From: a virus
Reading direction: 5' to 3' (one strand)
DNA length: 13,578 nt
Virus record (IMG/VR): IMGVR_UViG_3300029915_000364
Shown here: positions 6,505 through 7,039 of the stretch, in pieces
Layout of the letters: each line of letters begins with the position of its first letter
Numbering within the stretch: the first letter of the stretch is position 1
Translations under genes and position numbers: made by a program
Notes under the pieces: model-generated
What the model saw: the letters and a program-made list of their open reading frames with translations, nothing else
What the model was told of the DNA's origin: nothing
The model's database searches: none

Positions 6505-6933
6505 CTAGGAGCGGGGTGCCCACAGAGGAAGGTAGTCGAGGATATCCACCACCTCTTCCGGCATTACCGGAACGGTTGCCAAGGCAGTTGTCACTTCACA
6601 GGGGGCACCACAATCCTCACCATAAACGGCGGGGTTGATATCTTCAAAAGTGTAGTGCTCGATCTCCGCCTTCTCCAACAGCCGCTGTACATGACGCAAC
6701 TCATTCGAGTCACGAGCCCCGAGAATGATAGTGGTGATGGCCTCGTCTGCTCTCGCCAACTGATGCTTCTCACTCAACCCTATAATCTGGTGCATCTTCA
6801 TCCGGCTGGCCACATGCACAGCCTGAGCCGCGATTCTCCCCGGTACCTGAACTACCTCTCCCTCTGGGGTGGAGACAGTCTCGGCCACTACAACATAGAT
6901 TCGTTTTTCGGACGGAATTTTATTCTTCTTCAC
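6505..6933 (-). CDS. Peptidyl-tRNA hydrolase 2 (PTH2) family protein
   Basis: GTG start at 6933..6931 with GGGAG 5-6 nt upstream, and no in-frame ATG nearby. The 142-aa product has the PTH2 pattern: RIYVVVAET...PGRIAAQAVHVA (compare KMGKGKIAAQCSHA in PTH2). It is followed by ITTIILGARDSNELRHVQRLLEKAEIEHYTFEDINP and TALATVPVMPEEVVDILDYLPL (compare [22 protein letters not shown]). Confidence 0.65.
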   Translation of the reverse strand: MKKNKIPSEKRIYVVVAETVSTPEGEVVQVPGRIAAQAVHVASRMKMHQIIGLSEKHQLARADEAITTIILGARDSNELRHVQRLLEKAEIEHYTFEDINPAVYGEDCGAPCEVTTALATVPVMPEEVVDILDYLPLWAPRS

Positions 6934-7039
6934 TATCGTCTCCCAAGTAAAAATCGACCTCGTGAATCAAGGTGAGGTTTATCAAGGTACGAACTATATC
7001 GACTTCCGACTTGAGCAACCTGTCCCAAAATTTAATCAT
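6920..7039 (-). CDS. Small peptide (39 aa) with an acidic C-terminus (...DFYLGDDSEEE), translationally coupled to both neighbours
   Basis: The ATG lies within ATGATTAA and overlaps the TAA stop of the ATP-grasp gene by 8 nt. Its 3' end overlaps the GTG start of the PTH2-like gene by 14 nt. No SD of its own is needed if translation is coupled. It is the in-frame C-terminal part of track ORF 6920..7117. Confidence 0.45.
   Translation of the reverse strand: MIKFWDRLLKSEVDIVRTLINLTLIHEVDFYLGDDSEEE

What the first reader, a model, noticed from the sequence alone, without database searches (positions are those of the whole stretch)
6920..7039. 39-codon ORF overlapping both flanking genes, missed as a separate gene in the ORF track
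- **Coupling geometry:** The peptide frame starts inside the stop of the upstream gene (ATGATTAA) and ends 14 nt inside the downstream gene.
- **Shared junction type:** The same ATGnnTAA overlap is used at the rIIA/rIIB junction (ATGTCTAA at 10971..10978), so it seems a genuine coupling device in this genome.
- **C-terminus:** The peptide's acidic end DDSEEE resembles the substrate end used by RimK on ribosomal protein S6.
Basis: seen in the sequence. Interest (0 to 1): 0.55.

Follow-up and report, generated by a model that had tools for sequence, protein, structure and literature searches.

The report
Small coupled phage gene, orphan peptide
A 39-codon reading frame wedged between two phage genes is probably a real but lineage-specific small gene that links the translation of its neighbours, and its acidic end is mostly a by-product of overlapping the next gene's start.

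Summary
The ORF is exactly as described. It lies on the minus strand, 7039..6920, and encodes MIKFWDRLLKSEVDIVRTLINLTLIHEVDFYLGDDSEEE*. Its ATG sits in ATGATTAA with the stop of an R2K.3 ATP-grasp gene. Its stop lies 14 nt inside a GTG-started PTH2-like gene.

It was not missed by everyone. Public pipelines already call it a hypothetical protein on at least 34 near-identical peat-metagenome contigs.

Evidence that it is coding:
- A GGAG sits 6 nt upstream of the ATG.
- Its codon usage beats 99.7% of open dinucleotide shuffles.
- The -8 and -14 overlaps are standard termination-reinitiation geometry.
- Its last 10 codons differ from the one informative relative by synonymous changes only.

Evidence limiting the claim:
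- The peptide has no homologue among 1.8 billion representative proteins.
- In that relative the first 29 residues are replaced by an unrelated, longer ORF.
- SEEE* is the frame-shadow of the PTH2 start GTG-AAG-AAG-AAT, and uses codons this phage disfavours.
- None of 100 other R2K.3 loci carries an acidic-tailed ORF.

Verdict: a likely genuine orphan small gene acting as a translational bridge. The RimK-substrate idea is a weak, untested lead. Interest is low.

The parts
6920..7039 (-). orf39: 39-codon ORF plus TAA. The predicted peptide is a single alpha-helix with an acidic C-terminus.
   Evidence: Translation. Called as a gene (P0121) on at least 34 public contigs. Codon-model likelihood is better than 99.7% of open shuffles. 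AF2 predicts a helix over residues 2-37, pLDDT 86.
7032..7039 (-). ATGATTAA junction: the orf39 ATG (7039..7037) overlaps the R2K.3 stop TAA (7034..7032), a -8 overlap.
   Evidence: The same geometry occurs at rIIA/rIIB. In the 77%-identical relative, R2K also ends ...GVYHD and the next called gene starts with the same 8-nt overlap.
7046..7049 (-). GGAG Shine-Dalgarno-like motif 6 nt upstream of the orf39 ATG, embedded in the Gly-Val codons of R2K.3.
   Evidence: All ten other genes listed in the window have a GGAG-type motif upstream of the start codon.
6923..6952 (-). The last 10 codons, FYLGDDSEEE. This is the only part of orf39 shared with the relative L014. It contains the PTH2 Shine-Dalgarno and start.
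   Evidence: tblastn gives 10/10 identity. There are 3 nucleotide differences, all synonymous, P = 0.002-0.02. The DNA upstream cannot be aligned.
6940..6944 (-). GGGAG Shine-Dalgarno of the PTH2-like gene, 6 nt upstream of its GTG, lying inside orf39 codons Leu-Gly-Asp.
6920..6933 (-). The 14-nt overlap between orf39 (A GTG AAG AAG AAT AA read as ..S E E E *) and the PTH2-like gene (GTG AAG AAG AAT = M K K N).
   Evidence: It has one difference from L014 (TAA to TGA), which keeps the stop. Codon preferences fit the PTH2 frame.
7032..7856 (-). Upstream gene: R2K clade family 3 ATP-grasp (274 aa, start MLHFIF), a predicted peptide ligase.
   Evidence: Pfam PF14243, E = 6e-18. The ExGD motif VEIGDG is invariant in the alignment. 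AF2 pLDDT is 91, and Foldseek's top hits are DcsG, LysX, ArgX, PsnB and RimK.
6505..6933 (-). Downstream gene: PTH2-like protein (142 aa, GTG start).
   Evidence: Pfam PF01981, 26 bits against a cutoff of 23. 114 homologues share the EKRIYVVVAETV core.

Best explanation
orf39 is a genuine, translated, lineage-specific small gene of an uncultivated peat-bog phage. It forms the middle link of a translationally coupled chain: R2K.3 ATP-grasp, then orf39, then the PTH2-like gene.

**Proposed mechanism (inferred from geometry).**
1. Ribosomes terminating at the R2K TAA re-initiate at the ATG 5 nt upstream, helped by a GGAG 6 nt before it.
2. They translate 39 codons straight through the PTH2 Shine-Dalgarno and its weak GTG start.
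3. They terminate 14 nt past that GTG, so they can re-initiate there.

Without orf39, the 98-nt gap would uncouple PTH2 from R2K.

**The product.** It is predicted to be one amphipathic helix with an acidic end. That end is largely dictated by the overlap: LGD overlies the Shine-Dalgarno GGGAG, and SEEE* is the frame-shadow of GTG-AAG-AAG-AAT. The body of the peptide is evolutionarily disposable. It is replaced by unrelated sequence in the nearest relative. Any function of the peptide beyond bridging is unknown.

**Shown:** the geometry, the Shine-Dalgarno sites, gene-like codon usage, conservation of the tail, and orphan status.

**Inferred:** actual translation, and coupling.
For: - **Exact geometry and Shine-Dalgarno sites**.
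- **Chance and codon usage.** The open frame has P = 0.19 by chance. The codon likelihood of the 32 non-overlapping codons exceeds 99.7% of open dinucleotide shuffles. The GC3 > GC1 > GC2 ordering matches the phage's genes.
- **No rival signal in the gap.** There is no terminator or promoter excess, and no RNA structure (z = 0.21).
- **Independent gene calls** on at least 34 contigs.
- **Same junction in the relative.** In the 77%-identical R2K relative, the next called gene also starts with an 8-nt overlap, and the two following junctions are also short overlaps.
- **Same end in L014.** The ORF upstream of PTH2 there ends with the same 14-nt overlap and the same FYLGDDSEEE*. The 3 differences are all synonymous (P = 0.002-0.02). 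PTH2 itself is only 75% identical at the nucleotide level.
- **Literature.** The -8 and phase-1 overlaps are typical of termination-reinitiation, and gaps above 20 nt abolish coupling (PMC10666635).
Against: - There is no expression data.
- The peptide is an orphan: the exhaustive phmmer search over 1.84 billion representatives returns itself plus two weak matches (E 1e-5 and 5e-4) to long proteins hit in several stretches, which were not inspected. The word search finds only itself.
- The first 29 residues are not conserved in L014.
- Gaps of 50-130 nt without ORFs are normal in this phage, so a 98-nt gap needs no gene.
- The ORF's GC content (43%) is like that of other intergenic gaps.
- Tail conservation could reflect the PTH2 translation-initiation region. 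The synonymous-only argument rests on three substitutions.
- All contigs carrying the ORF are 99.9-100% identical, so there is no population-level test.
Confidence: 0.6

Rival explanations
1. Non-coding spacer: the 98-nt R2K-PTH2 gap happens to be open in one frame, and gene callers over-predict a 39-codon ORF. Only the PTH2 ribosome-binding region is functional.
For: - The open frame arises in 19% of shuffles.
- Two frames of the 106-nt rIIB-g106 gap are also stop-free.
- Gaps of 50-130 nt are common, and the ORF's GC (43%) resembles other gaps.
- There is no homologue anywhere, and the body is not conserved in L014.
- The conserved part coincides with the PTH2 Shine-Dalgarno and start.
Against: - Codon usage is better than 99.7% of open shuffles.
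- A GGAG sits at the right spacing.
- The start falls exactly in a -8 overlap, which the relative's downstream gene also uses.
- The three tail substitutions are all synonymous in this frame, including two in the spacer between the Shine-Dalgarno and the GTG.
Confidence: 0.2
2. Deletion or mosaic remnant. Relatives carry two longer genes (101 aa and 82 aa) between R2K and PTH2. In this phage an in-frame deletion or replacement left a 39-codon hybrid that keeps the first gene's overlapped ATG and the last gene's 10-codon end. It is still translated but is functionally decaying. This concerns origin, and is compatible with the bridging role.
For: - The P0002 contig reads R2K (ending GVYHD), then a 101-aa gene at -8, then an 82-aa gene at -8 that ends 22 nt before the contig end.
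- The L014 ORF upstream of PTH2 is at least 65 aa and has the same tail, so it could be that 82-aa gene.
- Homology between the window and L014 stops abruptly about 30 nt upstream of the PTH2 start.
Against: - The P0002 contig has no DNA available, so the 101-aa and 82-aa sequences are unknown.
- Neither the word search nor the exhaustive search listed any short ENA protein resembling the first 29 residues.
- L014 and the P0002 contig come from different samples, and it is not shown that they are the same phage.
Confidence: 0.3
3. Cognate substrate or partner of the adjacent R2K.3 ATP-grasp ligase. The acidic C-terminus would be extended or derivatised, as with RimK on S6 or LysX on LysW. Alternatively the peptide mimics the S6 tail.
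For: - The upstream enzyme is an R2K.3 ATP-grasp, predicted to ligate amino acids to proteins, with its target unknown (PMC4431377).
- Its model's best structural matches include LysX, ArgX with LysW, PsnB with its precursor peptide, and RimK.
- ATP-grasp ligases of this group bind acidic C-terminal tails (PMC10375531).
- The tail is conserved at the amino-acid level in L014 although the bodies are unrelated.
- -8 overlaps are enriched among genes for interacting proteins.
Against: - None of 100 other R2K.3 loci (18 viral contigs, 80 bacterial genome contigs and 2 metagenome contigs) has an acidic-tailed downstream ORF. 0 of 5,802 ORFs within about 3 kb have at least 5 D/E in the last 6 residues.
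- In related phages R2K and PTH2 lie about 2 kb apart, and the ORFs downstream of R2K are non-acidic.
- The codons for SEEE fit the PTH2 frame, not this one.
- There is no Cys4 domain as in LysW, no Pro-containing graspetide leader, and only one Ser.
Confidence: 0.08

Closest known systems
Same-strand overlapping gene pairs coupled by termination-reinitiation (ATGA at -4, TAATG at -1, ATGNNTGA at -8; PMC6728339, PMC10666635)
   Same: There is an ATGNNTAA -8 overlap at the orf39 start and a phase-1 -14 overlap at its end. A Shine-Dalgarno site sits inside the upstream coding sequence at both junctions. The same device is used at rIIA/rIIB in this window.
   Different: Coupling was not measured here. 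The middle gene is a 39-codon orphan whose main role may be to carry ribosomes across a 98-nt gap, rather than to encode a complex subunit.
RimK and ribosomal protein S6 (RpsF): C-terminal poly-alpha-glutamylation
   Same: [quoted passage not shown] The peptide ends in Glu residues, as S6 does. That E. coli S6 ends ...GDSEE is my own recollection, not a tool result.
   Different: The enzyme is R2K.3 (ExGD motif), not RimK. It has no sequence-level match in the PDB. The pairing is absent from 100 other R2K.3 loci. The Glu codons are the shadow of the next gene's Lys codons.
LysX/ArgX and the amino-group carrier protein LysW
   Same: A small protein (LysW is about 54 aa) has its acidic C-terminal Glu derivatised by an adjacent RimK-family ATP-grasp. 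LysX and ArgX are among the top structural matches of the R2K model.
   Different: orf39 has no zinc-binding Cys residues and no globular domain. There are no lysine or arginine biosynthesis genes nearby, and the setting is a phage.
Graspetide (microviridin, plesiocin) precursor peptides with their ATP-grasp ligases
   Same: A short peptide is encoded beside an ATP-grasp. An N-terminal helix (KFWDRLL) vaguely recalls the PFFARFL leader. The C-terminal part is rich in acidic residues. PsnB is among the structural matches.
   Different: The leader motif Phhx(1,2)h is defined by a conserved Pro, which is absent here (PMC8939145). There is only one Ser, no Thr in the tail and no Lys in the tail. 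The ligase belongs to R2K.3, not the graspetide clade.
Orphan small genes of phages
   Same: The gene is short, lineage-specific, has no homologues, is replaced by unrelated sequence at a mosaic joint in the nearest relative, and is called 'hypothetical protein'.
   Different: Nothing notable. This is the category it fits best.

Membership tests
Termination-reinitiation coupled overlapping gene pair | Same-strand genes with a short overlap (-1, -4 or -8, or phase-1 -11 or -14) | tested here: met
   -8 (ATGATTAA, 7039..7032) and -14 (6933..6920). Reference distribution from PMC10666635.
Termination-reinitiation coupled overlapping gene pair | Ribosome-binding motif upstream of the downstream start, inside the upstream ORF | tested here: met
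   GGAG at 7049..7046 is 6 nt from the ATG. GGGAG at 6944..6940 is 6 nt from the GTG.
Termination-reinitiation coupled overlapping gene pair | Downstream translation depends on upstream translation | not testable with these tools
   This needs reporter fusions or ribosome profiling.
Protein-coding gene (genuine) | Conservation of the reading frame and protein sequence in relatives | tested here: inconclusive
   Only the last 10 of 39 codons are conserved in L014, with 3 of 3 changes synonymous. The first 29 are unrelated. No meaningful homologue in 1.84 billion representatives: only itself and two weak, uninspected matches to long multi-stretch proteins. Population contigs are 99.9-100% identical.
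Protein-coding gene (genuine) | Gene-like codon usage | tested here: met
   The log-likelihood of the 32 core codons exceeds 99.7% of open dinucleotide shuffles. The LLR of 8.3 lies within the in-frame distribution at the 17th percentile.
RimK/S6-type or LysX/LysW-type ATP-grasp and acidic-tail substrate pair | Adjacent ATP-grasp ligase of the RimK-like fold | tested here: met
   Pfam R2K_3, E = 6e-18. Foldseek to LysX, ArgX and RimK gives E about 1e-10 and TM about 0.6. By Pfam it is not a RimK family member, and it has no sequence hit in the PDB.
RimK/S6-type or LysX/LysW-type ATP-grasp and acidic-tail substrate pair | Substrate ends in Glu or an acidic tail | tested here: met
   The peptide ends ...GDDSEEE. 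However, the codons are the shadow of the PTH2 start GTG AAG AAG AAT.
RimK/S6-type or LysX/LysW-type ATP-grasp and acidic-tail substrate pair | Enzyme-substrate gene pairing recurs across the enzyme family | tested here: not met
   In 100 R2K.3 loci there is no acidic-tailed downstream ORF, and 0 of 5,802 ORFs have at least 5 D/E in the last 6 residues.
RimK/S6-type or LysX/LysW-type ATP-grasp and acidic-tail substrate pair | Demonstrated ATP-dependent ligation to the C-terminus | not testable with these tools
   This needs biochemistry and mass spectrometry.
Graspetide precursor | Leader motif Phhx(1,2)h with a conserved Pro, plus a core with several Thr/Ser/Lys donors and Asp/Glu acceptors | tested here: not met
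   The peptide has no Pro, and its C-terminal half has one Ser and no Lys or Thr near the acidic residues. The motif definition is from PMC8939145.
R2K.3 ATP-grasp (upstream gene) | Pfam PF14243 above its cutoff, and ExGD in place of ExN in the last strand | tested here: met
   66 bits against a cutoff of 26.3. E246-x-G248-D249 are invariant in the alignment of 32 sequences. The motif is described in PMC4431377.
PTH2 peptidyl-tRNA hydrolase (downstream gene) | Pfam PF01981 above its gathering score | tested here: met
   26 bits against a cutoff of 23, E = 1e-5. The match is marginal and catalytic residues were not examined.

The most novel reading that the evidence does not exclude
The acidic-tailed helix peptide is the dedicated substrate, carrier or specificity partner of the phage's R2K.3 ATP-grasp ligase, analogous to LysW for LysX or the S6 tail for RimK. 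It is made in fixed ratio with the enzyme through the -8 overlap. That would be the first clue to the target of the R2K.3 family, for which none is known. The amino-acid-level conservation of FYLGDDSEEE on two unrelated peptide bodies would then mark the modification site.
Probability: 0.07. Interest if true: 0.7.

Novelty: new member of a known kind. Interest (0 to 1): 0.2.

Why it matters
As it stands, it matters little. It is one more orphan small phage gene in a standard overlapping, translationally coupled arrangement, and automatic annotation already predicts it.

It does show how an eye-catching peptide motif, an acidic S6-like tail next to a RimK-like enzyme, can arise as a by-product. 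Here it comes from reading through the next gene's Shine-Dalgarno site and lysine-rich start in another frame.

Only if the peptide proved to be modified by the adjacent R2K.3 ligase would it matter more. That enzyme family, whose eukaryotic relative is CDC123, has no known bacterial or phage substrate.

Tried and rejected
1. **Close relatives in phage GenBank records and IMG/VR.** Searching by DNA, by tblastn and by peptide patterns found none.
2. **Population dN/dS.** The ten contigs that carry the ORF (L004-L013) are 99.9-100% identical to the window, with 0-12 mismatches over 5.5-13.6 kb, so there is no power.
3. **Two scans of metagenome contigs.** One used the L014-type junction and one a degenerate FYLGDDSEEE pattern. 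Both were empty, and even the window's own sequence was not found. That collection therefore lacks these samples, and the negatives say nothing.
4. **The 77% relative's contig (P0002, ERZ1426850).** No DNA is held, so its 101-aa and 82-aa genes could not be read.
5. **RNA element in the gap.** The fold z-score is 0.21, and terminator and promoter hits are at or below shuffle expectation. Rejected.
6. **orf39 as an N-terminal extension of PTH2 or a frameshift extension of R2K.** Rejected. The PTH2 frame has a TGA 36 nt upstream of its GTG, read directly from the sequence. PTH2 homologues begin just before EKRIY. R2K homologues end at the same place.
7. **Pfam and PHROGs on the peptide and on the L014 upstream ORF.** Nothing found.
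8. **Graspetide-precursor reading (KFWDRLL against PFFARFL).** Rejected, because the defining Pro and the donor residues are missing.
9. **PTH2-like relatives' upstream regions.** L015, L016-L018, L117, L118, L119 and the P0133 contigs all have different genes upstream, and none has an acidic-tailed ORF.

Full report
**1. The observation**

All genes in the window lie on the minus strand. The stretch 7039..6920 reads ATG ATT AAA ... GAA GAA GAA TAA and translates to MIKFWDRLLKSEVDIVRTLINLTLIHEVDFYLGDDSEEE*.

- The ATG (7039..7037) and the TAA of the upstream gene (7034..7032) form ATGATTAA, an 8-nt overlap.
- The ORF's TAA (6922..6920) lies 14 nt inside the downstream gene.
- That gene starts at GTG 6933, the only start codon upstream of the family's conserved EKRIY core.
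- The rIIA/rIIB junction ATGTCTAA at 10978..10971 is also as stated.

It is not an overlooked gene, however. The identical 39-aa protein (P0121) is called 'hypothetical protein' by the JGI, ENA and Logan pipelines, and the index lists it in 34 blocks of the collection. Every one of the ten loci shown has the same neighbours.

**2. The surroundings**

- **Upstream gene (7856..7032, 274 aa).** It is an R2K clade family 3 ATP-grasp (PF14243, E = 6e-18). It has the family's ExGD motif, VEIGDG. Its AF2 model is confident (pLDDT 91). The model's best PDB matches are DcsG, LysX, ArgX with LysW, PsnB and RimK, at E about 1e-10 and TM about 0.6. Burroughs, Zhang and Aravind predicted R2K.3 to be a peptide ligase with unknown targets, probably acting in phage-host conflict (PMC4431377).
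- **Downstream gene (6933..6505, 142 aa).** It is PTH2-like (PF01981, 26 bits against a cutoff of 23).
- **Source.** The phage comes from peat or bog metagenomes. It has no match in GenBank phages or IMG/VR.

**3. Is it a gene?**

Evidence for:
- A GGAG lies 6 nt before the ATG. The other ten genes listed in the window all have a GGAG-type motif upstream of their start codon.
- The frame is open in 19% of dinucleotide shuffles of the gap. Among open shuffles, only 0.3% fit the phage's codon table as well as the real sequence does.
- GC by codon position is 0.46/0.21/0.54. This follows the genes' ordering (0.58/0.40/0.68) at a lower overall GC.
- The gap shows no RNA structure (z = 0.21) and no excess of terminator-like or promoter-like sites.
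- In the only R2K relative above 50% identity (P0002, 77%), the enzyme also ends ...GVYHD. The next called gene starts with the same 8-nt overlap.

Evidence against:
- Gaps of 50-130 nt are common in this phage.
- Another gap also has stop-free frames.
- The ORF's GC (43%) resembles that of other gaps.

**4. Conservation**

The peptide is an orphan. A word-indexed search of 5.8 billion proteins found only itself. An exhaustive phmmer search of 1.84 billion cluster representatives found itself plus two weak matches (E 1e-5 and 5e-4) to long proteins (921 and 294 aa) hit in several stretches, which I did not inspect and take to be spurious. The ten contigs that carry it (L004-L013) are 99.9-100% identical to the window, so population variation gives no test.

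The one informative comparator is L014, a 738-nt ENA contig. Its PTH2 is 76% identical in protein and 75% in DNA.

- The ORF upstream of PTH2 in L014 runs off the contig and is at least 65 aa. It ends ...CSVAIFYLGDDSEEE* with the same 14-nt overlap.
- Only those last 10 codons are shared with orf39. Upstream of them, DNA and protein cannot be aligned.
- Within the 10 codons there are three differences: TTT/TTC, GAC/GAT and GAT/GAC. All are synonymous. The stop changes from TAA to TGA.
- If substitutions fell at random on the 15 sites outside the Shine-Dalgarno site, three synonymous out of three has P = 0.002-0.02.
- For scale, 46 of the 107 amino-acid-conserved PTH2 codons carry synonymous differences.

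So the tail behaves like translated, constrained sequence in both lineages, and the body is replaceable. This rests on only three substitutions.

The P0002 contig reads R2K, a 101-aa gene and an 82-aa gene. The junctions between them are -8 and -8, and the last gene ends 22 nt before the contig end. This fits an arrangement of R2K, 101 aa, 82 aa (ending ...FYLGDDSEEE) and PTH2 in relatives. In that case orf39 would be a shortened hybrid or a replacement.

**5. The acidic end**

- The overlap GTG AAG AAG AAT (M K K N of PTH2) read one base earlier gives AGT GAA GAA GAA TAA (S E E E *).
- In this phage AAG is the strongly preferred Lys codon (193 against 39).
- AGT is the rarest Ser codon (12 of 192), and GAA is the less used Glu codon (104 against 153).
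- The nucleotides therefore suit the PTH2 frame, and SEEE is most simply its shadow.
- L-G-D overlies the PTH2 Shine-Dalgarno site, GGGAG.

I then asked whether R2K.3 ligases generally travel with acidic-tailed small genes. The survey covered 100 R2K.3 loci: 18 IMG/VR contigs, 80 GTDB genome contigs and 2 metagenome phage contigs.

- No downstream ORF had such a tail.
- 0 of 5,802 ORFs of at least 30 aa, on either strand and within about 3 kb, had at least 5 D/E in their last six residues.
- In related phages R2K and the PTH2-like gene lie about 2 kb apart or on different contigs.
- Upstream neighbours of PTH2-like genes differ from phage to phage.

The RimK-substrate reading is therefore not a family trait. 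It survives only as a low-probability, lineage-specific possibility. The points in its favour are:
- the enzyme's fold neighbours, LysX with LysW and RimK with S6, all of which bind acidic C-terminal tails (PMC10375531);
- the amino-acid-level conservation of the tail.

A graspetide-precursor reading (KFWDRLL against the microviridin leader PFFARFL) fails. The defining Pro and the ester and amide donor residues are absent (PMC8939145).

**6. Mechanism I commit to**

orf39 is a translated bridging gene.

- The -8 ATGNNTRA overlap is the third commonest junction among 2.66 million prokaryotic gene pairs.
- Phase-1 overlaps (-8, -11, -14) are the favoured long overlaps.
- Coupling by termination-reinitiation collapses once the gap exceeds about 20 nt (PMC10666635).

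With orf39, ribosomes finishing R2K can restart 5 nt upstream. They then read through the PTH2 Shine-Dalgarno site and its weak GTG, stop 14 nt later, and restart there. Without orf39, a 98-nt gap would uncouple the two enzymes.

The product is predicted to be one long helix (residues 2-37, pLDDT 86) with a less confident acidic end. No function can be assigned to it. Its replaceability in L014 argues that the act of translation, or only the last 10 residues, is what matters.

The geometry, motifs and statistics are shown. Translation and coupling are inferred.

**7. Verdict**

This is an ordinary small orphan phage gene in a standard coupled arrangement, already predicted by automatic pipelines. 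The RimK analogy is an attractive coincidence, largely explained by the frame overlap.

| Reading | Confidence |
|---|---|
| Real, translated bridging gene | about 0.6 |
| Chance ORF in a spacer | about 0.2 |
| Deletion remnant (an origin story compatible with the first) | about 0.3 |
| Substrate of R2K.3 | about 0.07-0.08 |

Interest: 0.2.

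Noticed in passing
window 3915..6374 (-): An 819-aa phage protein matches the major vault protein shoulder domain (PF11978, E = 3.5e-26) and Vault_3 repeats. It has no PHROG family. A vault-protein-like gene in a phage is unusual. It is conserved on every near-identical contig that extends that far.
   Followed up: no
window 6505..6933 (-); loci L015, L117, and the P0133 contigs: The PTH2-like protein belongs to a family of about 114 metagenomic, apparently phage-borne proteins with an EKRIYVVVAETV...ILDYLPLWTP signature. In several relatives the order is PTH2-like gene, a gene of about 85 aa, then DnaJ. 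In the window it is followed instead by the vault-like gene.
   Followed up: partly
window 7032..7856 (-); L016-L018: R2K.3 ATP-grasp, PTH2-like and Ku genes co-occur in several distinct soil or peat phage contigs. In one lineage R2K and PTH2 lie about 2 kb apart on the same contig, with R2K followed by a TPR protein. This suggests a shared accessory gene set rather than a fixed operon.
   Followed up: partly
window 9746..10978 (-): The rIIB-like protein (PF26926) ends in a long acidic run...EPSDEEDEYEEDEDCDEEDDGGY. This is a much longer acidic tail than that of orf39, on the same phage.
   Followed up: no
P0002 contig (ENA ERZ1426850, 2,444 nt; no DNA held): The nearest R2K relative (77% identity) is followed by 101-aa and 82-aa genes, each joined by an 8-nt overlap. 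The same region in the window holds only the 39-codon ORF. This is probably an indel or mosaic joint between the two phages.
   Followed up: partly
tool behaviour: metagenome contigs: A degenerate pattern that matches the window's own sequence (TTYTAYYTNGGNGAYGAYWSNGARGARGAR) found nothing in metagenome contigs. Yet the window phage is present in at least seven JGI metagenomes. That collection does not hold these samples, so negatives from it are uninformative here.
   Followed up: yes
window 8281..9267 (-) and 7910..8155 (-): A Ku homologue (PF02735, E = 1.7e-20) is followed by an 81-aa gene of phrog_33577 (E = 3e-13). In the related contigs L015 and L016 the Ku gene is likewise followed by a short gene, of 86 and 120 aa; I did not test whether these are related to the 81-aa gene.
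   Followed up: no
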